Positions 10,536 through 39,918 of a stretch of DNA of 52,246 nt are shown piece after piece. Each line of letters starts with the position of its first letter. The first letter of the stretch is position 1. The translations under genes and the position numbers were made by a program. The notes under the pieces were generated by a model. That model was not told the origin of the DNA. It was given only the letters and a program-made list of their open reading frames with translations, and made no database searches. The DNA comes from a virus, in the IMG/VR virus record IMGVR_UViG_3300038428_000302; one strand, 5' to 3'.

Positions 10536-11122
10536 ATTGGTTTGGCGGTTTGTTTTTTGAGCCAGAAGTAAATCTCCTTGCACGCCCGCAGGTCCGCCAT
10601 TGCGTCATGCGCTCCTGTGAATGGCTTCCCAAAAGCGGTTTGATAGGCTTCCTGCAAATTCGGCCATTTGAATTTGCCCTCAAACTTCCCCGGCAATTTG
10701 CAGATGTTGGTCATCTCGCGCATGGTGCAAAACGTCGGAAATGTTTTCCACCACTGGTCGTCCGCGTCGGTGATAAGCTCGTAACGGCGCATAGCAATAC
10801 GGGCGATGAACTTGTCGAATTGAAGATTGTGCGCCACCAGCAGGCCGGCCTTTTTCAGCATGGCAAGGAAAGTTTCGGCCACCTGTTTTTCTGGCAATCC
10901 GAATTGCAGGGAGATGGCCTGCGTGATGCCATGAACGTCGCTGGCTTCTTTAGGAACTTCCCACCCGTCCGGCTTCACGATGATATTGTGTTCCTCGCGC
11001 GCTCGGCCATCATCGTCCGTCAGAATGGCGGCGAGTTGGACAATGTGCGGTTGCGCCGGGTCACGGGCGCGAAGGTTGAAATCGGCTAGGCCAGTTGTTT
11101 CCGTATCGAGGAATAGAATCAT
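10532..11122 (-). CDS. DEDDh (DnaQ-like) 3'-5' exonuclease (196 aa)
   Basis: Exo I LFLDTETTG, Exo II LVAHNLQFD, Exo III GAHDAMADLRA (H-x4-D). Confidence 0.9.
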   Translation of the reverse strand: MILFLDTETTGLADFNLRARDPAQPHIVQLAAILTDDDGRAREEHNIIVKPDGWEVPKEASDVHGITQAISLQFGLPEKQVAETFLAMLKKAGLLVAHNLQFDKFIARIAMRRYELITDADDQWWKTFPTFCTMREMTNICKLPGKFEGKFKWPNLQEAYQTAFGKPFTGAHDAMADLRACKEIYFWLKKQTAKPI

Positions 11123-17171: not shown

Positions 17172-19049
17172 TCAGGGAGAATTAAACGAACCTTTTGGCA
17201 TGAGTTTCTGGTATTTTTCTGAAGGTTGAGACCAGAACAGCAATTCAGCTTTTTCGGCACGTTTAAGCCAGTTGAAAGCGGCTGTGCGGGAGCAACCTGA
17301 ATCGTCCATAACCAGTTTTGCCAATTCCGCCTTAGACATTGAGGAACGGCACAGTTCAGCTACCCGTTCAACGGTTGTAGCTGGGGTGATGGCTTTACCT
17401 CCCATACCTTCACGCCAGCCATCAATATCGAAAGAGGCATCAATCTCATAAATCATAGTTTCGGTGTTGAGAACGACGGAGAAAGGCTCAAATTCCTTGC
17501 CATTCGAGTTTTTACCACAAGAGATGACGAGCGTTTCACTGTTTTCCGTTGAGCCGGCGGCGACATTGATTTGGCCGCGTGTCCAAGCGTGGAGAACCTT
17601 TGAATTGCGGGAAAAGGAAGCGCGATCCTCCCCGGTTGCCTTGGCAGCGCCAGCTTTGCCGGTTAGGGCATGGTGAAGGACGAGTGGAATTCGATTAGAA
17701 TTACCGGACTTGGTTAGTTGGGAAATACATTGGAGGGATGAAGCCATGTCCACGTCTTTGTTAAGGTCTCCAATTTGGAAATTATAGAGACTGTCCCAAA
17801 CACAGGCATCCGGTTTATCCTCAGCTATCAGGTCGAAGATGGAACAGCGATGCGCCTCATCGTCGAGGCTTAAAAAGCCGTCATTGTCGGTTTCAAGCGT
17901 GTGTAATTTCAGCTGGTTGTTCACCTTTTTCCAATCGTGATCACCGAGCCAAGCCCGGATCTTACTGAGGTCAAATTGAAGGCGGCGGGTGGAGTTTTCA
18001 GCTTGAATAAAGAGCCAGCGCAATGTCGGTGCACGGGTTTCAAAGCCTAAGAACTGTCGTCCGGTGATGCAACAACAAGCCATTTGCAGGGCGAGCCGGG
18101 ACTTGCCAACAGATGACGCACCGCAGATAGTGGCGTTTTGACCTTTAGCGAGCAGTCGGTCGCCCAACACGATGTCGGTGTCGTCAAAGGACATGGCTAG
18201 TATTTCGTCGGGTGTTCGGATGGAAAGTTTAACCTTCACCGTTTCGGCTTCATCATCCGGTGTGCCATGAAATTCAAATTCCGGGGGTGGTGTTGACCAT
18301 TCAGGGGTTTGTGCCACCATCGCCTCGATGTGGAGTGCGTTTCCGCCAGCAGCGAAGAAGTCGTAAGCATCTTTGACAGGCTTACCGTTCAGGTCGGGCA
18401 GTTCAATCACTTTCAAGGATTCAACCTCGGCAACCAGTTTGGCGGCGACCATTTGCGCGTGCGCCCTACCCGGTGGGTCTTTGTCCGGGATGATGACAAC
18501 ATTTGCCCCGCGTAGGGTTTCGGTATAATTGTCCTGCCATTTGCCCGCACCGCCGGGATTGCAGGTCGCGCACAATCCCATTTCATTCATTTTGAGGCAG
18601 TCTTTTTCTCCTTCGCAGATGTAAATCGTCTTTGCCACCTTGATTGCCGAAAATACTTCTGGCAACCGATACAGTGAGCGGGTCACGCCGTCCATTTTCC
18701 ATATCCAACCGCCATGTCCGTCGGGTGTGCGCTGGCGGAACGTTTTGGGGTCAAACCTGACAACCTGAAAAATCAACTTGCCGTTGGCGTCTTGATAATC
18801 GTATTCAGCGGAGATTTTCGGCCTTATCTCACGATCAGGGAACAGGTCGGAAAGTTTCAAACCAAGAGAGGTGCAAATTGCTTCCGGCGTGCAACCACTG
18901 TGGCAATGGAGCAAGATTTTTCCGTCAGTGCCGCTGGTGATGGAAAGCGATGGATTTGAGTCGGGGTGGGCTGGGCAGCACGCCTGCCAAGAGTTTGCTC
19001 CCGACTTTTTAGAGTCGGGGAATTTAGTCAGCAGTTCTTCAATTCTCAC
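17172..19049 (-). CDS. Bifunctional DNA primase / replicative helicase (625 aa)
   Basis: N-terminal zinc motif CCPAHPDSNPS...LHCHSGC. TOPRIM motifs YICEGEKDCL and VVIIPDKDPPG. C-terminal RecA/DnaB-like ATPase with Walker A ICGASSVGKSRLA and Walker B-like ACVWDSL. GTG start with a GTGA overlap. Confidence 0.85.
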   Translation of the reverse strand: MRIEELLTKFPDSKKSGANSWQACCPAHPDSNPSLSITSGTDGKILLHCHSGCTPEAICTSLGLKLSDLFPDREIRPKISAEYDYQDANGKLIFQVVRFDPKTFRQRTPDGHGGWIWKMDGVTRSLYRLPEVFSAIKVAKTIYICEGEKDCLKMNEMGLCATCNPGGAGKWQDNYTETLRGANVVIIPDKDPPGRAHAQMVAAKLVAEVESLKVIELPDLNGKPVKDAYDFFAAGGNALHIEAMVAQTPEWSTPPPEFEFHGTPDDEAETVKVKLSIRTPDEILAMSFDDTDIVLGDRLLAKGQNATICGASSVGKSRLALQMACCCITGRQFLGFETRAPTLRWLFIQAENSTRRLQFDLSKIRAWLGDHDWKKVNNQLKLHTLETDNDGFLSLDDEAHRCSIFDLIAEDKPDACVWDSLYNFQIGDLNKDVDMASSLQCISQLTKSGNSNRIPLVLHHALTGKAGAAKATGEDRASFSRNSKVLHAWTRGQINVAAGSTENSETLVISCGKNSNGKEFEPFSVVLNTETMIYEIDASFDIDGWREGMGGKAITPATTVERVAELCRSSMSKAELAKLVMDDSGCSRTAAFNWLKRAEKAELLFWSQPSEKYQKLMPKGSFNSP

Positions 19050-22671: not shown

Positions 22672-23348
22672 CGGAGTAATTTCAATGCCTTGTTCATCAC
22701 GGCTTGGCCAGCATCTATCAATGGGATTTTTGTGTGCTTGGAGTTAATGACTAGAGGCAACTCGGTGCATCCTACAATCACCATCCGCGCGCCGCGCTGT
22801 TTCAGGTTGATAAGCACGTTACGCACTACATGGAAATCACCCTTTGTCTGCGTGCCAGAGATAACGGCTTTGATGGCCAAATCCAGAAAGAACTGTTCCT
22901 CATCGTTGGTCAGCACATAGTTGATGCCGCGATCTCCCAAGGCGTCTTGATAGAGACAGGATTTTCGAGTTGATGCCGACGAGATGATTCCAACTCGTTG
23001 GACGCCCTTAGGAACTGCATCACAGGCCTCATCAATTATATTCAACAGTGTGCCGGGGAAATACGATGCGAGGTCTTTGAAAGCATAAGCTGAGTTGCAG
23101 GCGATCACTGCGTAATGGCAATTCCATTTTCCCAGCTTGATGAGAGTTTCGACCAGTTGACGCTTGACATGAGAGTGGTCAATAATTCCCTTTTCGTCCA
23201 TACCCACGACGGGTAGGTTATAAAGTAGGAAACTTGGGAAGTCAGAATCAAGTTTGGCTCCGTCATCCTTGGATTTCTGCAATAGATAATCGGCCATTCG
23301 GAGTCCCGCGAAGGCTCCCATGCCGGAGATTATTCCCAGTGTTTTCAT
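22668..23348 (-). CDS. Asp/Glu/hydantoin racemase-family protein, aspartate-racemase-like (226 aa)
   Basis: MKTLGIISGMGAFAG (N-terminal GxxGGMG-type), first catalytic Cys motif VIACNSAY, second catalytic Cys motif IVGCTELPLV. Length and order match aspartate racemases. Confidence 0.8.
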   Translation of the reverse strand: MKTLGIISGMGAFAGLRMADYLLQKSKDDGAKLDSDFPSFLLYNLPVVGMDEKGIIDHSHVKRQLVETLIKLGKWNCHYAVIACNSAYAFKDLASYFPGTLLNIIDEACDAVPKGVQRVGIISSASTRKSCLYQDALGDRGINYVLTNDEEQFFLDLAIKAVISGTQTKGDFHVVRNVLINLKQRGARMVIVGCTELPLVINSKHTKIPLIDAGQAVMNKALKLLR

Positions 23349-25603
23349 TTATCCGATCCATTGGAAAGTTTTGCATAAGCACTGCGACTGTTTTTTAATC
23401 CACCTCGCAAAATCTCCGCAACGGCCTTTGCGTTCTGCCGTTTTTGATCGGCAACGAATGACGTGTCTTTGTGCCTTCGCTTTTGGATGTCGGCAAGCTC
23501 TTTGGACTTCAACTTCTGTTGTGTCTCAGCCTGTTTCCCGGCCAGCTTGACCTTTGTTTCGGCCATTTGCTGTTGCAACTCGCCATTGCCATTTTGCTGC
23601 TGCTTTTTCTGCACCTCCATTTGAAGGTGTTGCTGCAACTTTTTGATTTCGTTGTTGACTTGGCTCAATGCCTTCGCAAATTCCTTCATTTTCGGCTCGT
23701 TACCAACGTCACCTTGCATTCCTTGAATCAGTTTGCCGATGAACGCGGATACATTTTGTAGGCCGATGAGTTCCATCGGTGTTGCCATCTTGGTCGTGGA
23801 CTCAATTTTGACGATGTAACGGGTAGCCAATTCGAGCAGCTTTTGAATCTGTTCGATGGGGTTCAATCCTTCGGGGATGGACGGGGGCATACCGAGCATC
23901 ATCAGCGGGAAGTTAGCGGCGGCAGCGGCGGAGGCATCGGAAATGACTTTCTTGCTGGCTTGCACCCACCGTTTTGCGCGACGCGAACCGACCATTTGAA
24001 CTGCTGCGTCGTGCAACGCCTCGGCCTGGGCGGACGGGTCGAGCATGGGACGTAACTTCATTGCGTTCTCCGCCTCCACCATTGCCATTGTGGGGTTGCC
24101 ACCACCGAGCGGCTGTGTGATTTCCACGCGCCACTTTTTTACATCAATCCATTCCTCTGCTATGCCCTGCTTTTTGCAAGCCTTTTGGAAAGCCATCACG
24201 TCCTCGTCATCGGACTTTTTTAGACAGAACCGGCGACAGATTTCTTTCGCGGCAGATTTCTCGTAGATACGCGCTACCAACATTAGTCCTGACAGCATGG
24301 CATTTGTCTGCTGGACTTTCACGCCCGTCTCGAATGCGGTTTGTTCTTTCTTCGTGCCGGTGTCAATGTTTTGGGTGTAGGCCGTGGATGCTTCCTGCTG
24401 TAATTGCTTGCCCATTGCCAATGCCATTTCAGCGAGACCGGAATCAATCTGGTGACGTTCGGCGGCGGGCACAATGGACACTCCCGGCTTGATTACGCCG
24501 AGATTTTGGAACACTTGAATCTGGGCGCGTGCGCGATCAACAGGGTCGGCAATACGAAGCAAAATGTTGAACTGGTCGAGTATGTGTTTGAGCAGCCGGT
24601 TACGGGTAAAATCCGTCCAGTAACACGGTTCAAACAGGGCGAATCCGAGCGAGCGGACGGAGTGATACAAAAACGGTGCTTTGTTATTCAAGTCACCAAA
24701 CTGAACGTGCAAAATATGACGCCAACTTGGTGCAATCGCTCCCTCATGTTCACAGATAAATTTGTCATCAGCCTCGGCGGTAACACCTGACGTGTTGTTT
24801 TCAGGGACGACCTTCAGATGCCAACTACCGTCATCGTCCTCGTGGTAAAAATGCCAAAGATTGATTGTCGGCATGGCGTCCCCAGACCAGTAACCGGCAT
24901 TTTGCTTCCGCAATTCCTCAAACTTCTCCGGCACGGTGTTCCAGTCGTAGTTATTTTCGGCCATCGTGGTATTGCACTCTTTGACATTCTCCAAAATGGC
25001 CGAGACAGCTTTCTTGTTCCACTTGAATTTGCTTTTGACTTTGGAAAACGCCTTACGCGATAGTTCGCCCGGCGTGTAGGGTATGCGAACGGCAAACCAA
25101 GTGAGGTTGCGGAATGAAAGTTCGGTGTCGGTGGGAACTCGCAAGTCCTCAATGGCAACGTATCGCGGAAGCCAGTTGTAAGTGTCCTCCCACATTATAG
25201 GGCCTATGCCGTGACTGACGACCCCCGACCATTTGGAGCGATGCACTTCAAAGTATTCCAATTCATGCTCGCCCTCCTTCATCACGTCATTGATGAATTC
25301 GGTGATGAAATCGCCCCAATCAGATCGCACTTCTTCCGGTGCTTTGGGGACGGACACGGTAAAATAATTGTCTTGTGAACAGAAGTTTGTGATGTATTGT
25401 CGGCGTGCATGGGAGAGCGCACCCATGAACTCGCCCCACCGGATATTTATTTCCATGCCGACCCGCTTGGCCTCATCTTCATCTAAAAGAGGTTCGTTAT
25501 TGGCAGCACGGTTGATAAGGACTCTGTTACGACCGCGTTTCAACTCGGCGTCATCGCCGCTCCTAATCGTTTCTAAAACTTTTTCTGGCGTGCTGAAATT
25601 CAT
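23345..25603 (-). CDS. Putative portal protein (752 aa)
   Basis: Start set at the ATG at 25603 (ATGA overlap with the HNH stop). The size, the position downstream of terminase and HNH, and the long charged helical C-terminal tail fit podovirus-type portals. No explicit motif, so the call rests on context. Confidence 0.55.
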   Translation of the reverse strand: MNFSTPEKVLETIRSGDDAELKRGRNRVLINRAANNEPLLDEDEAKRVGMEINIRWGEFMGALSHARRQYITNFCSQDNYFTVSVPKAPEEVRSDWGDFITEFINDVMKEGEHELEYFEVHRSKWSGVVSHGIGPIMWEDTYNWLPRYVAIEDLRVPTDTELSFRNLTWFAVRIPYTPGELSRKAFSKVKSKFKWNKKAVSAILENVKECNTTMAENNYDWNTVPEKFEELRKQNAGYWSGDAMPTINLWHFYHEDDDGSWHLKVVPENNTSGVTAEADDKFICEHEGAIAPSWRHILHVQFGDLNNKAPFLYHSVRSLGFALFEPCYWTDFTRNRLLKHILDQFNILLRIADPVDRARAQIQVFQNLGVIKPGVSIVPAAERHQIDSGLAEMALAMGKQLQQEASTAYTQNIDTGTKKEQTAFETGVKVQQTNAMLSGLMLVARIYEKSAAKEICRRFCLKKSDDEDVMAFQKACKKQGIAEEWIDVKKWRVEITQPLGGGNPTMAMVEAENAMKLRPMLDPSAQAEALHDAAVQMVGSRRAKRWVQASKKVISDASAAAAANFPLMMLGMPPSIPEGLNPIEQIQKLLELATRYIVKIESTTKMATPMELIGLQNVSAFIGKLIQGMQGDVGNEPKMKEFAKALSQVNNEIKKLQQHLQMEVQKKQQQNGNGELQQQMAETKVKLAGKQAETQQKLKSKELADIQKRRHKDTSFVADQKRQNAKAVAEILRGGLKNSRSAYAKLSNGSDK

Positions 25604-26346
25604 AGTGCCAATACTTGTTGCCCAAGCCTCATCCAATCCTGAATCAGCTTGTCGTGTTTATGTTGATTGCAACTAGGGCAACTCGCACAAAGATTTGTTA
25701 CACTGTGTGCGCCGCCTTTGCTCAATGGAACAATATGGTCTATGTGAGCAGTTTTGCCAGCGGTTTTATTTTTACAATAGTAGCAGGCAACTTGTTTTGT
25801 TGCTCGAATCCCCCTTACAAATTTATTTATCGCAACAGGGTTTATTGTGTTACCGAGTTTGAAAGCGCGACGTTTTTGAGTTCCGCTGGCAGCATAAATG
25901 CGTATCTTGTGCCTGTTTTTCAAAGCCCAACGCTTCGATTTCTCTCGCACTTTTTCTGGATTATTTTTATGCCACGCTTTTGATTGCTCTGCAATTCTCT
26001 TTTTGACTTCTGGCCTTTGGTAGTAAGCTCGTCTTTTGGGGCGAAGTCTTTCTCGGTCACGTTCTCTGTGGCGATAATAATACCTCAACTTCGTTGCCTT
26101 CACCTTTTCGGGATTTTTTTTCCTCCAAATCTTTGACCGTTCCGACCAAATCTTCTTCTTTTCTGGATGCCGCGCTTTCCACGCCTTGTTAAGTTCCGCC
26201 ATTTTTTCACGGTTATTGTTACGCCAAATCTTCCCCGTGCTTAAAACGTGATCTTTGTTTTTTAGATAGTAGTTTTTGTTGTGTGCGCGTATCTTCTCTT
26301 TGTTTCGCTGCCTATACAATTTCCAGTATTCGGCGGTCTGGGGCAT
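25600..26346 (-). CDS. HNH endonuclease (248 aa) with N-terminal basic repeats
   Basis: C-terminus CYYCKNKTAGKTAHIDHIVPLSKGGAHSVTNLCASCPSCNQHK (HNH with Cys4 zinc sites). The N-terminus carries repeated W-x-KKNPEKV-like units. Start taken at MPQTAEYW, 5 nt after the upstream stop. Confidence 0.85.
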   Translation of the reverse strand: MPQTAEYWKLYRQRNKEKIRAHNKNYYLKNKDHVLSTGKIWRNNNREKMAELNKAWKARHPEKKKIWSERSKIWRKKNPEKVKATKLRYYYRHRERDRERLRPKRRAYYQRPEVKKRIAEQSKAWHKNNPEKVREKSKRWALKNRHKIRIYAASGTQKRRAFKLGNTINPVAINKFVRGIRATKQVACYYCKNKTAGKTAHIDHIVPLSKGGAHSVTNLCASCPSCNQHKHDKLIQDWMRLGQQVLAL

Positions 26347-26351
26347 AAAAT

Positions 26352-26675
26352 TTAATCTGTTTTTACAGGCGTTCCGCAGCCTGCACAATTTTGTTTAATG
26401 AAGTGGTGATTTTGGTGGACGCGATCAAAAGGTTCAGAGCAATTCCAGCAGAATCGTTCGTCATTTTGTCGAACGGCGCAGTTAAAGCGGTCAACGTCTT
26501 CGAGGCACTCACACAGACTGGAACGGGGAAGATTGTTGGCGATTCGAAATGAACTGACAGCCTTAACGACTTCTTCGATGATTGGGTTTGCTCCGAAACG
26601 GTGACGGACGCCTTCAGTCTGTTCATAAACATAATTGTTCGGCAGAGGATTGTTATAGGATTTTAAGATATACAC
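26352..26675 (-). CDS. Cys-rich hypothetical protein (107 aa)
   Basis: ORF between the terminase and HNH genes. CxC, CWNC and CAGC motifs. Confidence 0.55.
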   Translation of the reverse strand: MYILKSYNNPLPNNYVYEQTEGVRHRFGANPIIEEVVKAVSSFRIANNLPRSSLCECLEDVDRFNCAVRQNDERFCWNCSEPFDRVHQNHHFIKQNCAGCGTPVKTD

Positions 26676-26746: not shown

Positions 26747-29584
26747 TCAATGTTTCAAAAGTCCGGCCTTGATAGCGTTATTCCATTCTTCCGATTCTTT
26801 TGTAAAATAATCTTCCTCGTTGGCTGTGGATTTCACGTTCCGGCCAATGCGCTGAATCTGGAAGCCAAGTTGCCTAGCACCTTCAAGGGCTACGCAACAC
26901 CAGTCCATCAGGTCGGGAGATTTCTTTAACCGGTCCTTCATGTCCTCTTTTGGTTCGACTTCGATTTTGTTTCCGGCAACAGTTTTGAACAATCTGCACT
27001 GGCCTTCTTGGGCGACTTCCATCGGCAAAGACCGCACTTGATCTGACTCAATGGCTTCTCGCATCGAATACCACAATTCGGTTACGAACTTTTGGTATTG
27101 TTCATCGCACCGTTTCAGCCGTTTTCCATTCTTTCCATCGTCCACAAATAAATCGAATCGCACCGGCCTGTCAGTTGGGCGCGCGCCGGAGTCCACAGGA
27201 ATTGGGCAGTTAAAACCGAACTGCTTTGCGAAGGACGATCCGAGTGTGCCGCGCCCAAATGAATCGTAGAAAATGTTTTTTGGTGGAATACCGAGCCGGT
27301 CGGATTGCTGTTTGATGAACTCCGCTATTTGTCCTTCGGCATCGAGCGATGAGTTCAGTCGGATTGGAATTATTTCCGGTGTGCCTACCGAGAAAATAAT
27401 GTTGCCGTCCTTGTCCTCACCATATTCGCACTCGCCACCAACGCAACGGTCGCCACCGCCATACGCCGGGTCTAAAGCGTAGAGTTTCGTTCGCGGCGTT
27501 CCCTTCCAGACAACAGAATCAAATGCGTGATGCTGTTCGCAAAGACCGATGGTGATGACGCGATTTGAAACCATCCCCTTTGACGGTTTGCCGATGCCCT
27601 GCTGATAAAGCTGCCATGAATCGTCGCCATAAGTTTTTCGCAGCCCTTCGATAAACGGTTTTGAAATCAGGAAATGATATTTTGTTTCCGACTGGTCATT
27701 GTTTGGGGTGTCCCTGCCATCGAACGCAACGACATGGGCATCATGCCAACGCGAAGTCCACTCTTGAGTTTTACCATTGTCAATGAATGAGTCCCAACCG
27801 CCAATCGGTTCGGCGGCGGTGCAAAGGGGGTCGGAGATGTCAGTCGGGTTGCCAGATTGGACGCCCTTGAAATTATCATCCACAGTCCAGTTTGTGTATG
27901 CGTCGAGATAGCTGGTTTCCATAACAGCGGATTCATCTCCGTAATGAGTCAACAGTCCATCGTGCTTTCCGGGCGAGCTAGGGGCTTTAACACCCTGATA
28001 TTTTCCCATGCCAACGAAGCGGCCGCCTGAAATACAAGGAACGCAAGCTATGCCGCGAGAGAGCAGTCGAGCGAATTGGCCTTCATCGTCAATTTTGTCC
28101 GGGACAATCGCCCTTGCGGATTCGAGCAGGTAGCCGTCCAGCCAGCCGTAGCGCTCCCGCGCACGATTGAAAAGCCACTTGATTCCCCTTCCCCAGATTT
28201 TCTGGTCAAGACTCCGCATATCCGTCGAGGAAACCAGCGCAAACGATGTGAATGGGAAAGCCCAAAAAGTTATCAGGCAATGAGCGGCCATCAGATAAGT
28301 TTTTCCCGAATTGTGATGGATTGCTCCCTCCGCAAAATAATGATGCACGTTTGGAACACACAAATCATAGAATGTTTCTTTGTGGGATTTAGTTATTGAC
28401 ACCACCCGCGATTGTGATACCTTGAAACGATATGACTCATTATTACAAACGGAACGCGAAAAGGGATTCTCGAATTTTGTCTCTTTTTCTTCATCTGAAC
28501 AGAGATTTGGTTGTGACCGCTCGACTGTCAAACATGAAGATTGCAGCGACTCGGAATGTTTTAAAGGCTGCTGGTGAGAAATTCCCGAAAACAAAACTTC
28601 ATCCAAATAGTGCGTGCCATAAAAATCAGAAGTTGGTTTTTGAAATGGAACAGTCCGGTTCAAGTTTGGATGAAATTGGTCGTCGGATTGGAACTGGGGG
28701 GCGTCATGTAAAAAGGTTTTTGCGCGAGCATGGCGTGACGCGAGATTTTTTGACGAGCAAAAAGGCTGAACGCCACTACGCTTGGAAGGGAGGTAGAATA
28801 ATCGACAAGGACGGTTATGCGACGGTGTATTGTCCTGATCATCCCCACCGCCGGAAGCATACGCCTTATATTTTAGAGCATCGTCTTGTGATGGAAAAGA
28901 TGATTGGCCGTTTTTTGCTGCCGGAAGAAGTCGTTCATCATCGGGACAAGAACAAGCAGAATAATTCTCCTGAAAACTTGCAACTTTTTTCAGAGAATCG
29001 GGAACATTTAGCACAAGAGTTAAAGGGTTGTGTTCCGAATTGGAGTCCTGAAGGTTTTGCTCGTATGAAAGAATCAGGGAACCGAACCGGAGATTTGAGA
29101 CGTGGCAAAAGTCCCCATTTGTGGCTAAGACGCGGTGAGATGCAGTCGCCTTGAATCGTTGTCCGTTTTCCAAAACGACTTCGTATAAATCTTCTTCACC
29201 TTTAATGAAGGGGATGCCCGCTTGTGCTGCTCCCGCTAGTGTCAGCACCGTTGGAGCGATTTGTTTTTCGTAAAGTTCTCGTATTGTCGGTTGTTCTCCG
29301 GTTAGAGGATTCAAAATTCGGGTGTCACCCGAAACACAACTGGCCGATCCAAGAAATACACTCACCTTATTTTCAACGATGGCTTTCATTCCTTGCACGA
29401 ACCAGCGATGTTGGTCATCTTCCGGCCAGAGCAATTTGTGGGCATTAAGATAATGCTGAAGCCGGTTTGTCCCGTGATATTTTAGGGATGCATCAGATTG
29501 AGCTAAAACAGAAAGCTCAATGGCAAGCGGGTCAAGGTTGTTGTCCAAATCAAATCCGTATTTGAGCATGAGCCAACAATACAT
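26747..29584 (-). CDS. terL: Terminase large subunit precursor (945 aa) containing a 343-aa intein in the Walker A loop
   Basis: Removing residues 83-425 joins ..VSVFLGSAS to SGKTYLMAAH.., giving the Walker A GSASSGKT. Downstream are YGDESAVME (Walker B/coupling-like) and a nuclease-type LDPAYGGGDRCV. The extein is 602 aa. Confidence 0.85.
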   Translation of the reverse strand: MYCWLMLKYGFDLDNNLDPLAIELSVLAQSDASLKYHGTNRLQHYLNAHKLLWPEDDQHRWFVQGMKAIVENKVSVFLGSASCVSGDTRILNPLTGEQPTIRELYEKQIAPTVLTLAGAAQAGIPFIKGEEDLYEVVLENGQRFKATASHRVLATNGDFCHVSNLRFGSLILSYEQNLQDSNSEHNPLTLVLNVPDSLKKVASFQENYSACSCPDDERLLPAAKNGQSSFPSQDDALKYKAYASGGGDDQDNTPSHNRPCRLFYLPSKRSGVQPFCSSKNLASRHARAKTFLHDAPQFQSDDQFHPNLNRTVPFQKPTSDFYGTHYLDEVLFSGISHQQPLKHSESLQSSCLTVERSQPNLCSDEEKETKFENPFSRSVCNNESYRFKVSQSRVVSITKSHKETFYDLCVPNVHHYFAEGAIHHNSGKTYLMAAHCLITFWAFPFTSFALVSSTDMRSLDQKIWGRGIKWLFNRARERYGWLDGYLLESARAIVPDKIDDEGQFARLLSRGIACVPCISGGRFVGMGKYQGVKAPSSPGKHDGLLTHYGDESAVMETSYLDAYTNWTVDDNFKGVQSGNPTDISDPLCTAAEPIGGWDSFIDNGKTQEWTSRWHDAHVVAFDGRDTPNNDQSETKYHFLISKPFIEGLRKTYGDDSWQLYQQGIGKPSKGMVSNRVITIGLCEQHHAFDSVVWKGTPRTKLYALDPAYGGGDRCVGGECEYGEDKDGNIIFSVGTPEIIPIRLNSSLDAEGQIAEFIKQQSDRLGIPPKNIFYDSFGRGTLGSSFAKQFGFNCPIPVDSGARPTDRPVRFDLFVDDGKNGKRLKRCDEQYQKFVTELWYSMREAIESDQVRSLPMEVAQEGQCRLFKTVAGNKIEVEPKEDMKDRLKKSPDLMDWCCVALEGARQLGFQIQRIGRNVKSTANEEDYFTKESEEWNNAIKAGLLKH
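28396..28423 (+). promoter_or_regulatory. Possible extended -10 promoter TTGACA-N16-(TGa)TACCTT upstream of the antisense HNH gene
   Basis: Read directly on the plus strand. The -10 ends 8 nt before the ATG at 28432. It is embedded in terminase coding sequence, so chance occurrence cannot be excluded. Confidence 0.3.
28432..29154 (+). CDS. HNH (HNH_3-type) homing endonuclease with N-terminal HTH, encoded antisense inside the terminase intein (240 aa; may start at 28534)
   Basis: HTH-like SLDEIGRRIGTGGRHVKRFLREHGV. HNH_3 core DGYATVYCPDHPHRRKHTPYILEHRLVMEKMIGRFLLPEEVVHHRDKNKQNNSPENLQLFSENREH. Confidence 0.8.
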   Translation: MTHYYKRNAKRDSRILSLFLHLNRDLVVTARLSNMKIAATRNVLKAAGEKFPKTKLHPNSACHKNQKLVFEMEQSGSSLDEIGRRIGTGGRHVKRFLREHGVTRDFLTSKKAERHYAWKGGRIIDKDGYATVYCPDHPHRRKHTPYILEHRLVMEKMIGRFLLPEEVVHHRDKNKQNNSPENLQLFSENREHLAQELKGCVPNWSPEGFARMKESGNRTGDLRRGKSPHLWLRRGEMQSP

Positions 29585-29623
29585 CTTGCGAATTCGTAAA
29601 ACAAGGCGTAGTTATATGAATTG

Positions 29624-32600
29624 ATGGCTAGAGGCGCAACAAAGTCTGTATTTCTGAAAGATTTTCTCGGCAACTTTTTGGGCGGCATTGACGGCGGGGT
29701 TGACCCGCACCTGCTCAAGAAAGACAAGCTCGCGTGGGCGGTGAACTCAACGGTTCGCGGCGGTTTTATCGGCCCGATGCCAAAAATCCTTTCCTACAAT
29801 TTCTCGGATGGCGGGATTCCGGTCATCGGTGGAAGTGCGGCAGTTTCCTACTTCGTTCAAAACGGTGTTTTTCAAGGGGCAACACCACAGGCGTATCAAC
29901 CCCACGCAAGTTCAATTCTTCCCGGCCCGACATTCTTTGCGCTCATCAGCGGACGGTTGTTCGGATTCACGCCGGATTTCTCGGTCAGCATTGCAGGAGC
30001 TTACGTTGCTTCACCAGGAATGATTGCGGTTGTGGAATACACGCCGACCGTTTCAGGCTCAAGTCCAGTTCAGGCAGATTTGAACTCGGCGACCGCGCCG
30101 CAAGCGTGGCTTGACCAAGCGGAAAATTATCTCATCGTGCAGGATGGGACAACGCCAAACCCGCTTGTGTTTGACGGCAACAAATCTTTCCGCTCGTATT
30201 CGCTGCAACAAGTCGTTGGAACATTCTCGAATGGAACCGCGCTTGTAGCTCCTGTTTCTGGCGGTGTCATTGTAGCAACAGTTACGACGGACATCACAAC
30301 TATTGACCCGAAGTTCTTCAACATTCCGGTTGCCCTTTATGCGCCATCGGGGGGTATTGCGGTGGGGATAAGTCCTGTTACGCCTGCCTATGCCGGGGGG
30401 CAATACATCGGACAAATGGCACTTACGATTGTTCCGCCAATGACCGGCGGGGCGTTGCTTTCTTCGGCGGCAACGGGAACTGTTAAAACCGGGGACACGA
30501 TTTTTCTCCAAAATTCAAATTACCCAATAAGCAATCCGACTATAAATATCGGCGGGAGTTATCCGATTGCGTATTCTCCAAACCCGACCGTTAATACCGC
30601 CGATGCCAACAATGCTCAAAATACAACCGGATTTGTGTCCGGCTCATTGGTGGCAGTCGCAACAGTCGCACAGTGGGCTGCTGTGGTGGGTTCACCCTAT
30701 GGTAGTCCCCTACAACCCACAGGGCAAACAGCGCAAGTGACTTCCAATTCCATCACGCCGTCCATGATTGCGGCGGGCAGTTTCACCATCCCGCTTCCAT
30801 CCGACCCCTACGGAAGTAATTCTCAAATCACCGCCATCACGCTTCAATACCAGACGCAAGCCACAGTGCCGGTTGTCAGCTACGCTCCGATTGGAACCAT
30901 TGGCGGGACAGGATTAACTTACAGCTTTCCGAATACAGCATTGGCGGTTGTGCTTTCAGGAGGTGCGTCTTATCCGACCACTTCAACACAGGGAGCGACT
31001 GTTTTTGTCGGCAGTAACACAACCATTCCAGCGGCTAATTTGCAATGCACTATTGATTCACCATCTACTGCTACGACCTATTACCTGACAAACAATTCAG
31101 TCGTCGCCGGAATTGTGTTGCAAAATGTCGTCGTTCAAACTGTAATCGGAATACCCTGCGGCAAGGCGTGGACATATTGTCAGGGACGAATCTGGACATC
31201 GCTTCCCAACGGCACTCAGTTTGTTGCGGGTGATGCGGTTGGTAGTTCCAGCGGGACGGCGGCAAACGGTTTTCTCGATGCCATCCTCTACACGATGCAG
31301 AACACGCTTCTGTCCAACGGCGGCACGTTTAGCATCCCCGGAAACTACGGCACAATCAGGGCGTTGGTTGTCGCCCCAACGATGAATGTCCAGCTTGGGC
31401 AGGGGCCGCTTCAAGTTTTTACGACGCAAAGCGTTTTCAGCGTCAGTGCCCCGGCGGACATGACTACATGGCCAAGTCTGACAACTCCGATTGTCACAGT
31501 GTCGCTTATTGGCGCTGGCGGATTATCGCAGTGGTCAACAATTCCGGTGAACGGCGACATCCTGTTTCGCGCGCCTGATGGTATCCGTTCCATGACCATT
31601 GCTTCATTGGACTTTTACAAATGGAACAGCACACCATGCAGTCAGGAAGTTCACTTGGCACTCGATAGTGATAATCCGAGCCTGATCAATTTCTGTTCGG
31701 CAATACAATTTGATAACCGCGTCATCTTTGGCTGTTCGCCCGTCAGCGGAATCAACGGCGCATATTTTCAAAATGCTGCGGTGATGAATCTTGATGCGGT
31801 CAGCAATTTGCAAAACAAATCTCCGGCAGTTTGGGAGGGGGAATGGACAGGATTGAACACCTTGCAATGGATGACGGGAATTTTCGGGAACAAAGTTCGC
31901 TGTTTTTCATTCACATCAAACGGGACAACCATCGGTTTTTCGGAATTGTTGATGACGGCCGACGGTCAGGACATTACCGGCACAACAACGACGACATGGC
32001 AGTTTGAATCCTCGGTGCTTTTTGGCCGGAATGAAAGCGCGGGTGAATACGATTTATTGCGGTTGGAAGACGGAGAAGTTTATGTCCAGAACATCATCGG
32101 ACAAGTCGGGTTCATGGTCGAATTCAGGCCGGATTACGATACGTTGTGGCATCCGTGGTATTCGTGGAGCGTGGACAACACCAAAGGCAATGTCCCTTAT
32201 GCCGTCAGGATGGGGCTTGGCAATCCAATCGGCGGCGCGTCGGTTTCCGGCACTCAATATCGTGATGGATATGATTTTCAAGTTCGGGTGACGGTGGTTG
32301 GCTCGTGTAATTTTATGGGCTTGGCCGAAAAAGCCTCGGTTGTGCCGCAATCGGAATTTGCCAGACCAATCATTCCCATTCCGCCTACGCCACCTACACC
32401 GCCAGCCGTGCTGTTGAAACAGATGTTCGCCGCGTCGGGCGCGCCGACAACCCAAAACCCAGGAAACTTGGCGGGTATTTATTGGGATGTCCTTGATGAA
32501 GAATTTTATCTGTGGCTCGGAACGCAATGGGACACCGGAATCACGCCCACGGGATCGTTTGTGATCTGCACCGGGCGGCAGGCGTTTGCCGGTTCAGGTG

Positions 32601-32875
32601 CGCCGACCGTCGCCACGCCGACGCCCGCCAACAACGCGGGGACATATTTCGATTACACAAACAGGGCGTTGTATTTCTGGAATCCGGCGGGTTATTGGGG
32701 TAGCGATACAACCGCAATCGGCAGCGGTGTGATTGCAACTTCGCTCGGTTCGGACTACATTTCGGGGCATGGAGTTCCGCTAACACAGAAACCGGCGAAT
32801 GGGGCTGGCATTTATTACGACTTGGACACCCTGACGGTGTATAACTGGAATCCCATCACACAAACTTGGCTATGA
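29624..32875 (+). CDS. Large virion structural protein (1083 aa), possibly a tail tubular/nozzle-type protein, with three C-terminal YWD..Y.WN..W repeats
   Basis: The ATG at 29624 is preferred (the track uses the TTG at 29621). The N-terminus GGIDGGVDPHLLKKDKLAWAVNSTVRGGFIGPMPK resembles N-termini of podovirus tail-tube proteins (weak, from memory). First gene of the structural block. Confidence 0.45.
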   Translation: MARGATKSVFLKDFLGNFLGGIDGGVDPHLLKKDKLAWAVNSTVRGGFIGPMPKILSYNFSDGGIPVIGGSAAVSYFVQNGVFQGATPQAYQPHASSILPGPTFFALISGRLFGFTPDFSVSIAGAYVASPGMIAVVEYTPTVSGSSPVQADLNSATAPQAWLDQAENYLIVQDGTTPNPLVFDGNKSFRSYSLQQVVGTFSNGTALVAPVSGGVIVATVTTDITTIDPKFFNIPVALYAPSGGIAVGISPVTPAYAGGQYIGQMALTIVPPMTGGALLSSAATGTVKTGDTIFLQNSNYPISNPTINIGGSYPIAYSPNPTVNTADANNAQNTTGFVSGSLVAVATVAQWAAVVGSPYGSPLQPTGQTAQVTSNSITPSMIAAGSFTIPLPSDPYGSNSQITAITLQYQTQATVPVVSYAPIGTIGGTGLTYSFPNTALAVVLSGGASYPTTSTQGATVFVGSNTTIPAANLQCTIDSPSTATTYYLTNNSVVAGIVLQNVVVQTVIGIPCGKAWTYCQGRIWTSLPNGTQFVAGDAVGSSSGTAANGFLDAILYTMQNTLLSNGGTFSIPGNYGTIRALVVAPTMNVQLGQGPLQVFTTQSVFSVSAPADMTTWPSLTTPIVTVSLIGAGGLSQWSTIPVNGDILFRAPDGIRSMTIASLDFYKWNSTPCSQEVHLALDSDNPSLINFCSAIQFDNRVIFGCSPVSGINGAYFQNAAVMNLDAVSNLQNKSPAVWEGEWTGLNTLQWMTGIFGNKVRCFSFTSNGTTIGFSELLMTADGQDITGTTTTTWQFESSVLFGRNESAGEYDLLRLEDGEVYVQNIIGQVGFMVEFRPDYDTLWHPWYSWSVDNTKGNVPYAVRMGLGNPIGGASVSGTQYRDGYDFQVRVTVVGSCNFMGLAEKASVVPQSEFARPIIPIPPTPPTPPAVLLKQMFAASGAPTTQNPGNLAGIYWDVLDEEFYLWLGTQWDTGITPTGSFVICTGRQAFAGSGAPTVATPTPANNAGTYFDYTNRALYFWNPAGYWGSDTTAIGSGVIATSLGSDYISGHGVPLTQKPANGAGIYYDLDTLTVYNWNPITQTWL

Positions 32876-39152: not shown

Positions 39153-39914
39153 ATGGCACTAGGACAACTCGCGCCTTGGCTCAATATCAACACTCAAGAA
39201 TGGGGTAATCTTGCCGCTCGTGGAGCGCAGCTTGACATCGAACGCCAACGGCTTGCCGATGAAGTTCAACAACGAAAAGCGGCATCTGCTTTGCAGCGGG
39301 ATCGTTTTCAGTTGGACACTCAAAATGCCCAAACTCGAAACGACCAACTGGCTGCGGGGATGGCACTCAGGTTGGCACAAATGAAACAGGCTGGGTTACT
39401 AGGTCAGGAAAAAATTGACCAGAGCGGCCAACTTGGAAATGCGCGGCTAGGTTTGACAGCAAATCGAGATGCGGACACGGCTGACTATCATCAAGGTATT
39501 CTCGACAACCAGGAGGACAGAAACCAGACCGCCAAAGACATGCTGGCTTTGAAGCAAAAACAGGAGGAAGAAAAAATCCTCACCACAATGTCCCCGGAAG
39601 ATAAGGCAAATGAGAGTCTGCTTCGTCAAAAAATAATGACTGACTACAAGGCGTATCAGACAGCCGTGACGGATAAAGACAGGGCGGCAATGCAAACGCG
39701 CCTTGACGATTACATGAATCAGCGAACGGAGATTTTCGACAGATACCGAAATAAATCCGCCGCCTCAACCTTGACGCAGGGCACGGGGACGAATCTGCCA
39801 GGAACGCCTACGGCTATTCCCTACACAAAAGGCTTGAAGCCGGTGAAAGATCAGTTGTATTCCATTAAGGGTAAAACCTATTCATGGGATGGAACGCAGT
39901 TCATCGAGCAATGA
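39153..39914 (+). CDS. Gln-rich coiled-coil protein (253 aa), possible internal virion protein
   Basis: Heptad-like, Q/R/D-rich sequence in the structural block. Confidence 0.55.
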   Translation: MALGQLAPWLNINTQEWGNLAARGAQLDIERQRLADEVQQRKAASALQRDRFQLDTQNAQTRNDQLAAGMALRLAQMKQAGLLGQEKIDQSGQLGNARLGLTANRDADTADYHQGILDNQEDRNQTAKDMLALKQKQEEEKILTTMSPEDKANESLLRQKIMTDYKAYQTAVTDKDRAAMQTRLDDYMNQRTEIFDRYRNKSAASTLTQGTGTNLPGTPTAIPYTKGLKPVKDQLYSIKGKTYSWDGTQFIEQ

Positions 39915-39918
39915 CACA

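What the first reader, a model, noticed from the sequence alone, without database searches (positions are those of the whole stretch)
28310..29338. Terminase P-loop intein whose homing-endonuclease gene is encoded on the opposite strand (723 nt open on both strands)
Seen in the sequence:
- The terminase ORF runs uninterrupted for 945 codons.
- Residues 83-425 have all the splicing blocks of a class-1 intein: CVSGDTRILN, TASH, FYDLCVPNVHHYFAEG, and HHN followed by S.
- Excising them rebuilds the Walker A GSASSGKT.
- The central roughly 230 residues of the intein, where an in-frame LAGLIDADG or HNH domain normally sits, are S/Q/P/D-rich low complexity with no nuclease motif.
- The complementary strand of exactly this segment carries a 240-codon ORF (28432..29154) with an HTH and a textbook HNH_3 core (GYATVYCPDHPH...YILEHRLVMEKMIGRFL..EEVVHHRDKNKQNNSPENL).

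The two frames are in the phase where codon position 1 faces position 1 and each wobble position faces the partner's position 2.

With uniform codons, the chance that about 241 antisense codons contain no stop is roughly (61/64)^241, on the order of 1e-5. The intein frame therefore appears to be kept open by selection.

Inference: this is a composite mobile element. A mini-intein provides the protein-level excision, and a separately transcribed antisense endonuclease provides the homing. I do not know of an intein described with this arrangement.
Basis: partly seen in the sequence, partly recalled or inferred. Interest (0 to 1): 0.9.

Follow-up and report, generated by a model that had tools for sequence, protein, structure and literature searches.

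The report
Terminase intein with antisense HNH endonuclease
A phage DNA-packaging gene carries a self-splicing protein insert whose mobility nuclease is a separate gene on the opposite DNA strand; this layout is known for other nuclease types, but this HNH version is apparently undescribed and common in environmental phages.

Summary
The minus-strand terminase ORF (26747..29584, 945 aa) carries a class-1 intein (aa 83-425) in its Walker A motif. Removing it reproduces natural intein-less alleles found in 97%-identical relatives. Inside the intein, the plus-strand ORF 28432..29154 encodes a well-folded HTH-HTH-HNH_3 endonuclease.

This is one member of a large family:
- In 94 of 97 loci encoding relatives of this HNH (36-69% identity), the gene lies antisense inside an open terminase intein frame, always in the same phase.
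- The HNH frame is under purifying selection. The intein "linker" frame is only kept free of stops: 0 stops against about 5.5 expected per sequence, and Phe never precedes an A-initial codon.
- A sigma70-like promoter is embedded in the C-terminal HINT codons.
- Mini-intein decay forms, an endonuclease swap and a free-standing copy also exist.

Its novelty claim is not. Antisense LAGLIDADG and VSR-like endonucleases in inteins have been published (Gorbalenya 1998; Gosselin et al. 2025). I found no report of an antisense HNH type, nor of this abundance. Verdict: a new variant of a known kind.

The parts
26747..29584 (-). Terminase large subunit precursor ORF (945 aa) including the intein
   Evidence: ORF listed. 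PHROG terminase hits. 97% identical to intein-less 602-aa alleles L002-L005.
29339..29584 (-). N-extein (aa 1-82), ending in the first half of Walker A (…FLGSAS)
   Evidence: The junction matches the intein-less alleles.
28310..29338 (-). Class-1 intein (343 aa; TerL aa 83-425)
   Evidence: Pfam PF14890 at 8.7e-11 and TIGR01445 at 1.3e-10. Boundaries. Invariant residues C1, H68, D325, H342 and N343 in intein alignment A2.
29069..29338 (-). N-terminal HINT half (intein aa ~1-90; blocks A and B, with TASH at 29135..29146). Its last ~29 codons are overlapped by the 3' end of the HNH ORF.
   Evidence: Matches solved mini-inteins (1mi8, 2imz) over profile positions 1-94. Codon-position entropy shows the intein frame under selection up to about residue 90.
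28430..29068 (-). Intein 'linker' (aa ~91-303 of the intein): the antisense translation of the HNH gene, kept stop-free but not conserved as protein
   Evidence: Amino-acid identity 21% in this frame against 47% in the HNH frame. Intein codon position 2 is the most variable. No profile or PDB match. Unalignable in A2.
28310..28429 (-). C-terminal HINT half (blocks F and G: FYDLCVP…HYFAEGAIHHN)
   Evidence: invariant D325, V328, P329, H333, Y334, G338, H342, N343. (profile positions 267-306 match solved inteins).
26747..28309 (-). C-extein (aa 426-945), starting with Ser+1 and the rest of Walker A (SGKT)
28432..29154 (+). Antisense HTH-HTH-HNH_3 endonuclease gene (240 aa), the presumed homing endonuclease
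   Evidence: Pfam HNH_3 at 2.6e-10 and phrog_10730 at 3.7e-29. 1076 homologues. AF2 mean pLDDT 87, with two HTH modules (aa 2-46 and 61-99) and a bba-Me core (aa 122-197). I-HmuI is the best nuclease fold match. Position 3 is far more variable than positions 1 and 2.
28396..28423 (+). Promoter-like site for the HNH gene: TTGACA (28396-28401), 16 nt, TACCTT (28418-28423, preceded by TG). It ends 8 nt before the ATG, implying a leaderless mRNA, and lies within C-terminal HINT codons.
   Evidence: Sequence. Conserved position and enrichment across relatives: 62% score >=9/12 against 4% of controls. Inferred, not shown.

Best explanation
This is a composite homing element made of two genes on opposite strands of the same DNA.

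**Minus strand.** The terminase large-subunit gene is interrupted in its Walker A codons by a class-1 intein. The intein's N- and C-terminal HINT halves are joined by about 210 residues of non-conserved sequence, which is simply the antisense reading of the endonuclease gene. The whole precursor is translated. The HINT halves associate, the intein splices itself out, and an intact GSASSGKT P-loop is restored.

**Plus strand.** A sigma70-type promoter buried in the C-terminal HINT codons drives a probably leaderless transcript. It encodes a 240-aa HTH-HTH-HNH endonuclease. In a mixed infection this enzyme would cut intein-less terminase alleles at or near the Walker A coding sequence. Repair from the intein-bearing copy would then copy the whole 1029-bp unit, plus some flanking extein, into the empty allele.

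**Shown here:**
- the anatomy;
- the exact match of the excision product to natural empty alleles;
- family-wide maintenance of both frames, with selection acting on a different frame in each segment;
- promoter conservation;
- decay forms.

**Inferred:** transcription, translation of both products, splicing, and the cleavage site.
For: - **Anatomy and profiles:**
- **Empty alleles:** L002-L005 (97% aa identity) read FLGSAS|SGKT.
- **Chance excluded:** 0 of 20,000 synonymous resamples are open.
- **Recurrence:** in 94 of 97 loci with HNH relatives, the gene lies in a stop-free minus frame of >=300 aa (mostly 750-1200 aa). The phase is identical in 94 of 94. Insertion is almost always in Walker A.
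- **Intein-first search:** 63 of 68 loci carry the same antisense HNH.
- **Negative control:** only 2 of 31 distant free-standing HNH_3 genes have any open antisense frame.
- **Selection on the HNH frame:** entropy at HNH codon positions 1, 2 and 3 is 1.16, 1.00 and 1.69 bits. Amino-acid identity is 47% in the HNH frame against 21% in the linker frame.
- **Frame switch:** the frame under selection changes at about intein residue 90.
- **Dual-coding footprint:** 0 stops against 5.5 expected per sequence. Phe is never followed by an A-initial codon (0 of 304, with 68 F-[IMTNK] expected). xTT, xTC and xCT never precede A. A free-standing family member (L071) breaks this rule.
- **HNH fold:** pLDDT 87, with I-HmuI the best nuclease match.
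- **Promoter:** >=9/12 matches in 62% of loci against 4% of controls. The -35 sits at a fixed position, +86 to +89 nt from the intein's 3' end.
- **Homing cycle stages:** full elements, truncated HNH (L237, L194) and mini-inteins (L211, L231).
- **Co-conversion-like divergence** is concentrated around the insertion site.
- **Viable cultured phages** carry the arrangement: Pectobacterium phage Ymer and relatives, and Pseudoalteromonas phage PHS3. The intein must therefore splice out of an essential protein.
Against: - There is no experimental evidence here for the plus-strand transcript, the HNH protein, splicing or cleavage.
- The promoter call rests on an E. coli-type consensus, and the host is unknown. 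The -10 in this window is weak (TACCTT).
- Part of the -35 conservation may reflect the conserved V-S-I codons of the intein.
- In the sampled loci, intein and extein similarity are correlated (r=0.75). I found no near-identical element in very different terminases, so recent long-range transfer is not demonstrated.
- The divergent tract next to the insertion could be ordinary phage mosaicism.
- The AF2 model of the intein itself was uninformative (pLDDT 33, single sequence).
Confidence: 0.85

Rival explanations
1. The antisense HNH in this particular phage is an inactive passenger. The element once homed but is now a vertically inherited intein whose endonuclease no longer works.
For: Intein and extein similarity are largely correlated across sampled loci (r=0.75). 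Decay forms exist. Activity cannot be tested here.
Against: The window's ORF is full length and keeps all 32 invariant family residues, including the HNH core. The family shows strong purifying selection in the HNH frame. 97%-identical terminases lack the element, which points to recent gain or loss. The literature expects a useless antisense ORF to accumulate stops quickly.
Confidence: 0.08
2. The nested HNH has been domesticated for a phage function rather than for homing. Examples would be terminase-associated HNH activity in packaging, or exclusion of competing phages by cutting their terminase genes.
For: HNH nucleases next to terminase genes are known to assist packaging in some phages (abstract of PMC3592412, seen). 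The element always sits in the terminase. Cutting a competitor's terminase would also benefit the carrier.
Against: The gene is absent from 97%-identical relatives that are otherwise collinear, so it is not essential. Mini-intein derivatives lacking it persist. Its architecture (tandem HTH plus an I-HmuI-like core) is that of free-standing or intron-borne homing endonucleases. Competitor exclusion and homing are not mutually exclusive.
Confidence: 0.05
3. The terminase is made as two polypeptides and joined by trans-splicing, as in a fractured gene with a split intein. On this view the open frame through the HNH gene is irrelevant.
For: The HEN sits at the canonical split point. Gene callers and annotators often split the gene there. 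Fractured terminase genes with free-standing HENs are known (PMC2677866).
Against: The frame is stop-free in 94 of 94 nested cases, against about 5.5 stops expected per sequence. This even constrains the HNH protein sequence. That cost would not be paid if read-through translation were unnecessary.
Confidence: 0.01
4. Chance ORF or assembly artefact, such as a local inversion.
For: None beyond the unusual appearance.
Against: Null models. More than 150 independent contigs from different samples, plus cultured phage genomes, show the same arrangement.
Confidence: 0.01

Closest known systems
Non-canonical inteins with an antisense homing endonuclease: anti-sense LAGLIDADG (Gorbalenya 1998 and Gogarten 2002, as cited), and anti-sense LAGLIDADG and VSR-like HENs in actinobacteriophage inteins (Gosselin, Arsenault & Gogarten, bioRxiv 10.1101/2025.01.02.630785)
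   Same: An endonuclease ORF lies on the opposite strand, between the splicing blocks of an intein whose own frame stays open. The hosts include phage terminase large subunits. Both are interpreted as capture of a free-standing HEN by an intein, with the two working as one mobile unit.
   Different: - The endonuclease here is an HTH-HTH-HNH_3 protein, a type not listed there. That survey reports HNH only in-frame.
- That survey calls such architectures rare: 63 of 784 inteins, across four types.
- This family is large, with at least 588 IMG/VR loci and 1,142 50%-identity clusters at E<=1e-30. It is almost always nested, and it occurs outside actinophages.
- Not described there: the invariant phase, the amino-acid-level dual-coding rule, and the promoter embedded in HINT codons.
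Fractured genes: split inteins with a free-standing endonuclease gene between the halves (Dassa et al. 2009, PMC2677866)
   Same: A free-standing-type HEN gene occupies the canonical HEN insertion point of an intein. The loci are of phage origin, and a terminase is among the hosts.
   Different: There the host gene is broken into two ORFs and must trans-splice. Here the host frame is continuous and is kept so by selection.
Out-of-frame 'hidden' endonucleases: the ShiLan HNH insertion in a phage methylase (PMC11855218), the frame-3 EndoVII-like HEN in inteins (Gosselin 2025), and the cyanobacterial dnaX intein out-of-frame LAGLIDADG (bioRxiv 10.64898/2026.09.14.751524)
   Same: A homing nuclease is overprinted on an in-frame insertion that contains no stops in the host frame. 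Selection is frame-dependent.
   Different: Those lie on the same strand in a shifted frame, and ShiLan has no splicing domain. The window's HNH is antisense. A same-strand out-of-frame HNH_3 does occur in the second intein of relative L006.
I-HmuI, the HNH homing endonuclease of Bacillus phage SPO1 (PDB 1u3e)
   Same: It is the best structural match for the nuclease core (Foldseek probability 0.99, 26% identity over 95 columns). Both are phage homing-type HNH enzymes with added DNA-binding modules.
   Different: I-HmuI is encoded in a group I intron and has a different DNA-binding extension. The overall Foldseek E-value is weak (0.06). The N-terminal tandem HTH here resembles the Tc3/Mos1 bipartite domains.
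Canonical class-1 mini-inteins (Ssp DnaB 1mi8, Mtu RecA 2imz)
   Same: The HINT halves match at 1e-13 to 1e-11 and carry all the class-1 catalytic residues.
   Different: Those are engineered or natural minimal inteins with a short linker. Here the linker is about 210 residues of translated antisense DNA.

Membership tests
Class-1 intein (HINT domain) | Profile match above the curated threshold | tested here: met
   Pfam PF14890 scores 42.3 bits (cut-off 35.8). TIGR01445 scores 42.2 bits (cut-off 24.5).
Class-1 intein (HINT domain) | Catalytic residues: Cys/Ser/Thr at position 1, block B TxxH, block F Asp, penultimate His and terminal Asn, and a +1 Ser/Thr/Cys | tested here: met
   C83, T147-A-S-H150, FYD, H424-N425 and S426. 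These are invariant in alignment A2.
Class-1 intein (HINT domain) | In-frame insertion whose removal restores a conserved host motif | tested here: met
   Excision gives GSASSGKT, identical to the natural empty alleles L002-L005.
Class-1 intein (HINT domain) | Protein splicing activity | not testable with these tools
   Supported only indirectly: viable cultured phages carry the same arrangement in their only terminase gene.
HNH_3-type homing endonuclease | HNH_3 profile match above threshold, with conserved catalytic His/Asn residues | tested here: met
   PF13392 scores 40.2 bits (cut-off 24.8). H150, H169, H170, N178, N182 and H192 are invariant in A1.
HNH_3-type homing endonuclease | bba-metal fold with DNA-binding modules | tested here: met
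   AF2 pLDDT 87. Local match to I-HmuI with probability 0.99, but no Foldseek hit at E<=1e-3 overall.
HNH_3-type homing endonuclease | Sporadic presence or absence at a fixed site in otherwise similar genomes | tested here: met
   Present in the window and L001. Absent from the 97%-identical L002-L005.
HNH_3-type homing endonuclease | Site-specific cleavage of the empty allele and gene conversion | not testable with these tools
   Only a co-conversion-like divergence tract around the site.
Non-canonical intein with an antisense HEN (Gorbalenya 1998; Gosselin et al. 2025) | HEN ORF on the opposite strand between the splicing blocks, with the intein frame open through it | tested here: met
   Family-wide.
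Non-canonical intein with an antisense HEN (Gorbalenya 1998; Gosselin et al. 2025) | HEN of a described type (LAGLIDADG or VSR-like) | tested here: not met
   The HEN is HNH_3 with tandem HTH modules. This is why I call it a new variant rather than a new member.
Fractured gene / split intein with a free-standing HEN (Dassa 2009) | Host gene split into two separately translated ORFs | tested here: not met
   A single 945-codon ORF. There are 0 stops in 94 of 94 nested relatives.

The most novel reading that the evidence does not exclude
The antisense layout may be an adaptive design rather than a tolerated accident, and it may be the predominant way environmental phage terminase inteins carry their nuclease.

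A promoter hard-wired into conserved HINT codons would give the HNH its own, possibly early and leaderless, expression programme, uncoupled from late terminase synthesis. Convergent transcription or sense-antisense RNA pairing could time or throttle nuclease and terminase production.

The invariant phase across sequences that have diverged to 36% identity would then reflect one ancient capture that has been maintained. The independent antisense capture of a different HNH family (L200) and the same-strand overprinted HNH (L006) would show that nested capture of free-standing nucleases is a general, ongoing route by which inteins gain mobility. That would fit the 'splicing first' view of intein evolution.
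Probability: 0.3. Interest if true: 0.75.

Novelty: new variant of a known kind. Interest (0 to 1): 0.6.

Why it matters
- **It makes a supposed rarity common.** Antisense-encoded intein nucleases have been treated as rare curiosities. This family has over a thousand sequence clusters and is found in phages of many bacterial phyla.
- **It is a clean natural example of long-term antisense dual coding.** The rules are explicit: a fixed phase, a forbidden dipeptide class, and segment-by-segment division of which frame is under selection.
- **It supports one route of intein evolution.** The evidence fits inteins acquiring mobility by capturing free-standing endonuclease genes.
- **It exposes a systematic annotation error.** Gene callers and GenBank records split or mislabel these terminases and miss either the intein or the nuclease.
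- **It is testable.** Cultured carriers exist (Pectobacterium and Pseudoalteromonas phages), so expression, splicing and homing can be tested directly.
- **It may have practical use.** The HINT scaffold tolerates a linker of about 210 arbitrary residues, which is relevant to intein engineering.

Tried and rejected
- **Intein protein search.** Searching the 5.8-billion-protein database with the intein returned nothing. The likely reason is that gene callers truncate these terminases at the HNH gene. I therefore worked from DNA loci.
- **Terminase against cultured phages.** tblastn of the whole terminase against INPHARED phages gave no match.
- **Intein structure.** The single-sequence model was uninformative (pLDDT 33), so I have no structural statement on the linker.
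- **Gorbalenya 1998.** PMC147447 is not held. Its content is cited only as reported by later papers.
- **Foldseek for the HNH.** No hit reached E<=1e-3. Only the local I-HmuI match is meaningful.
- **Recent long-range transfer.** I looked for near-identical inteins in very different exteins and found none in this sample.
- **Linker hydrophilicity.** The effect is weak (mean z = -1.4) and confounded by stop avoidance.
- **Other overlapping ORF pairs in the window** showed no nested nuclease.
- **RNA genes.** No tRNA or Rfam family in the window.
- **Rejected explanations:** chance, an assembly inversion, a fractured gene, and a packaging-essential HNH. See the rival explanations.
Full report
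**1. The observation**

The window has a 945-codon minus-strand ORF (26747..29584) and a 240-codon plus-strand ORF (28432..29154) lying entirely within it.

The long ORF is a terminase large subunit (phrog_2, phrog_17415). It contains an intein: Pfam Intein_splicing scores 42.3 bits against a cut-off of 35.8, and TIGR01445 scores 42.2 against 24.5. The intein is residues 83-425 (window 28310..29338). It has Cys1, TASH, FYDLCVP, and HHN followed by Ser.

The plus-strand ORF is a real HNH endonuclease: Pfam HNH_3 at 2.6e-10 and phrog_10730 at 3.7e-29. HNH codon position 1 faces terminase codon position 1.

Chance does not explain the double openness. Resampling synonymous codons of the HNH gene gives about 8 stops in the terminase frame, and 0 of 20,000 resamples were open. 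The other two antisense frames carry 9 and 13 stops.

**2. Empty alleles**

A scan of IMG/VR found four contigs (L002-L005) whose terminase is 97% identical but only 602 aa long. They read FLGSAS|SGKTYLM, exactly the product predicted by excising residues 83-425.

Six synonymous differences lie within -10 to +16 nt of the junction. Nucleotide divergence between the two alleles is concentrated around the insertion: 60-65% identity at -240 to -120, against 93-100% from +360 to +1440. This is what co-conversion during homing from a diverged donor would leave, although ordinary phage mosaicism is not excluded.

**3. It is a family, not a single case**

The HNH protein has 1076 homologues in the large protein database, mostly 185-290 aa. 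An exhaustive profile search finds 1,142 representatives of 50%-identity clusters at E<=1e-30.

I looked up where relatives are encoded and then fetched 156 loci by profile from viral and genome contigs.
- Of the 97 loci analysed (HNH identity 36-69%), 94 have one minus-strand frame with no stop across the HNH gene. That frame is at least 300 aa, and mostly 750-1200 aa. The other two minus frames carry 1-18 stops.
- In all 94, the phase is the same as in the window.
- HMMs of the HINT halves and inspection of the junctions place almost all insertions in the terminase Walker A motif (G-x-x-x|C…HN|S/T-G-K-T/S). A second sub-site, GK|T, occurs in a few.
- Searching the other way, with an alignment of the inteins, 63 of 68 loci carry this HNH antisense in the same frame.
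- As a negative control, only 2 of 31 distant free-standing HNH_3 genes have any stop-free antisense frame. Both are from GC-rich actinobacterial contigs.

**4. Which frame is under selection**

Across 88 unique nested HNH genes, nucleotide entropy at HNH codon positions 1, 2 and 3 is 1.16, 1.00 and 1.69 bits. Mean pairwise amino-acid identity is 47% in the HNH frame but 21% in the intein frame over the same nucleotides. So the HNH protein is under purifying selection, and the intein middle is not conserved as a protein.

The signature flips along the DNA. Intein residues 1-90 have intein position 3 as the most variable, including the stretch overlapped by the poorly conserved HNH C-terminal tail. 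From about residue 91, intein position 2 (which is HNH position 3) becomes the most variable. Each segment is thus constrained in one frame and merely kept open in the other.

Keeping the frame open leaves a strong footprint:
- There are no stops in 88 sequences, against 5.5 expected per sequence under synonymous permutation.
- Codons xTT, xTC and xCT never precede an A.
- Phe, whose two codons cannot avoid this, is never followed by an A-initial codon: 0 of 304, with 68 F-[I/M/T/N/K] expected.

The one clearly free-standing member found (L071) does contain F-T.

**5. The two proteins**

With the family alignment, AlphaFold predicts the HNH with mean pLDDT 87. It has two helical HTH modules, a beta-beta-alpha-metal core and a C-terminal helix. 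The best nuclease match in the PDB is the homing endonuclease I-HmuI (probability 0.99, local). The HTH modules resemble the Tc3/Mos1 bipartite DNA-binding domains. No hit reaches E<=1e-3 overall.

The intein profile matches solved class-1 mini-inteins (Ssp DnaB, Mtu RecA) only through its first ~94 and last ~40 positions. A structure for the intein itself could not be obtained.

**6. Expression signals**

The HNH ATG sits at a nearly fixed distance from the intein's 3' end, +116 to +131 nt, at the edge of the C-terminal HINT codons.

Upstream, sigma70-like promoters are strongly enriched. 62% of loci score >=9/12 against 4% of control windows, and 34% score >=10/12 against 0.5%. The -35 lies at +86 to +89 nt, inside the conserved V-S-I codons of the intein.

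In the window the site is TTGACA (28396-28401), 16 nt, then TACCTT preceded by TG. It ends 8 nt before the ATG and has no Shine-Dalgarno sequence, which suggests a leaderless mRNA. Other subgroups have a longer leader with AAGGAGG. This is consensus-based inference, and the host is unknown.

**7. Life cycle and modularity**

All stages of the homing cycle are seen:
- empty alleles;
- full elements;
- inteins with truncated HNH remnants (L237 at 199 aa, L194 at 148 aa);
- mini-inteins without any HNH (L211 at 134 aa, L231 at 130 aa).

One relative (L200) has the same HINT scaffold but an antisense HNH of a different family (PF01844), in a different phase. That is an independent capture. Another (L006) has a second intein near the terminase C-terminus that carries an HNH_3 gene on the same strand, out of frame.

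Element and host similarity are mostly correlated (r=0.75), so I see no very recent jumps between distant terminases. The window itself is discordant, however. Its terminase's nearest relatives lack the intein, while its intein's nearest relatives (57-64% nt) sit in terminases only 22-30% identical.

**8. Cultured phages**

The arrangement occurs in Pectobacterium phages (Ymer, Sabo, Abuela, Taid, Pappous, Koroua, Amona), Dickeya phage Setonix and Pseudoalteromonas phage PHS3.
- In Ymer, the terminase is annotated as a 754-aa hypothetical protein and the HNH is not annotated.
- In PHS3, the region is annotated as 'terminase large subunit', 'HNH endonuclease' and 'terminase small subunit'. The minus frame is in fact open for 708 codons, with the intein in Walker A.

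These phages are viable, so the intein must splice out of the essential terminase.

**9. Comparison with what is known**

The general arrangement is published. Gosselin, Arsenault and Gogarten (bioRxiv 10.1101/2025.01.02.630785) surveyed 784 actinobacteriophage inteins and found 63 non-canonical ones:
- in-frame HNH;
- anti-sense LAGLIDADG;
- anti-sense VSR-like;
- frame-3 EndoVII-like.

Terminase large subunits are among the hosts. The authors cite Gorbalenya 1998 and Gogarten 2002 for earlier anti-sense LAGLIDADG cases, and they call these architectures rare.

Related arrangements are:
- fractured genes with split inteins (PMC2677866);
- the out-of-frame ShiLan HNH (PMC11855218);
- the out-of-frame dnaX intein endonuclease (bioRxiv 10.64898/2026.09.14.751524).

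A full-text search for intein + anti-sense + HNH found only the Gosselin paper and one unrelated review. Within the searchable literature, then, I found no description of an antisense HNH-type intein endonuclease, its abundance, the invariant phase, the dipeptide rule, or the HINT-embedded promoter. Papers in subscription journals are not covered by this search.

**10. Verdict**

- **Observation:** confirmed.
- **Interpretation:** supported as to mechanism, by inference. Transcription, splicing and cleavage remain untested.
- **Interest:** moderate to high for specialists. I score it 0.6.

Noticed in passing
window 25475..26362 (gene 25600..26388, minus strand): A second HNH endonuclease gene (262 aa; Pfam HNH_5 5.5e-13, phrog_1035 'endonuclease VII') lies just downstream of the terminase. 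The ~890-nt segment carrying it is missing from the otherwise collinear relative L002, where ~147 nt stand in its place. It is therefore an independent free-standing endonuclease insertion.
   Followed up: partly
L006 2280..5951 (minus strand); second intein at aa 841-1161; ORF 2503..3168: A related 1223-aa terminase has two inteins. One is the Walker A intein with the antisense HNH. The second, a C-terminal intein (KEK|CFAAGT…VLVAN|CGKS), contains an HNH_3 gene (1.7e-13) on the same strand in a shifted frame.
   Followed up: partly
L200 3001..3969 (intein, plus strand); antisense ORF 3247..3837: The same HINT scaffold and insertion site, but the antisense ORF is a different HNH family (PF01844, with CxxC zinc ribbons) in a different phase (position 1 faces position 3). 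This is an independent capture or swap of the nuclease module.
   Followed up: partly
L211, L231, L194, L237 (IMG/VR contigs): Decay series of the same intein family at the same site. L211 (134 aa) and L231 (130 aa) are mini-inteins with no HNH. L194 (148 aa) and L237 (199 aa) retain only C-terminal HNH remnants.
   Followed up: partly
L071 330..1031: A full-length member of the HNH family that is truly free-standing: every antisense frame has stops and no terminase is nearby. It contains the F-T dipeptide that is forbidden in nested copies.
   Followed up: partly
L244 (Pectobacterium phage Ymer OP748252.2) and L245 (Pseudoalteromonas phage PHS3 KX912252.1): GenBank annotation misses the arrangement. 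In Ymer, the intein-bearing terminase is a 'hypothetical protein' and the nested HNH is unannotated. In PHS3, the terminase is split into a 'large subunit' and a spurious 'small subunit' on either side of the HNH gene. Metagenome gene callers likewise truncate the terminase at the HNH.
   Followed up: yes
L069, L073, L075, L076, L080: A subgroup has the intein one position further along Walker A (…NRIGK|C…HN|T…), between Lys and Thr rather than before Ser-Gly-Lys-Thr. It still carries the same antisense HNH and the same phase.
   Followed up: no
L097 (Acetobacteraceae MAG), minus-strand ORF of 2107 aa: Here the nested HNH and intein sit at aa ~1368-1619 of an unusually long 2107-codon open frame. 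It may be a fusion or a run-on of upstream genes, and I did not examine it.
   Followed up: no
window, whole: No tRNA genes and no Rfam families were found. Most large structural-region proteins have no Pfam or PHROG match, for example 29621..32875 (1084 aa), 39889..45396 (1835 aa) and 23345..25636 (763 aa). The phage is therefore very distant from characterised ones. Recognisable genes include a primase-helicase (17172..19049), an RNase T-like exonuclease (10532..11122) and an FkbM-type methyltransferase (47023..49353).
   Followed up: no
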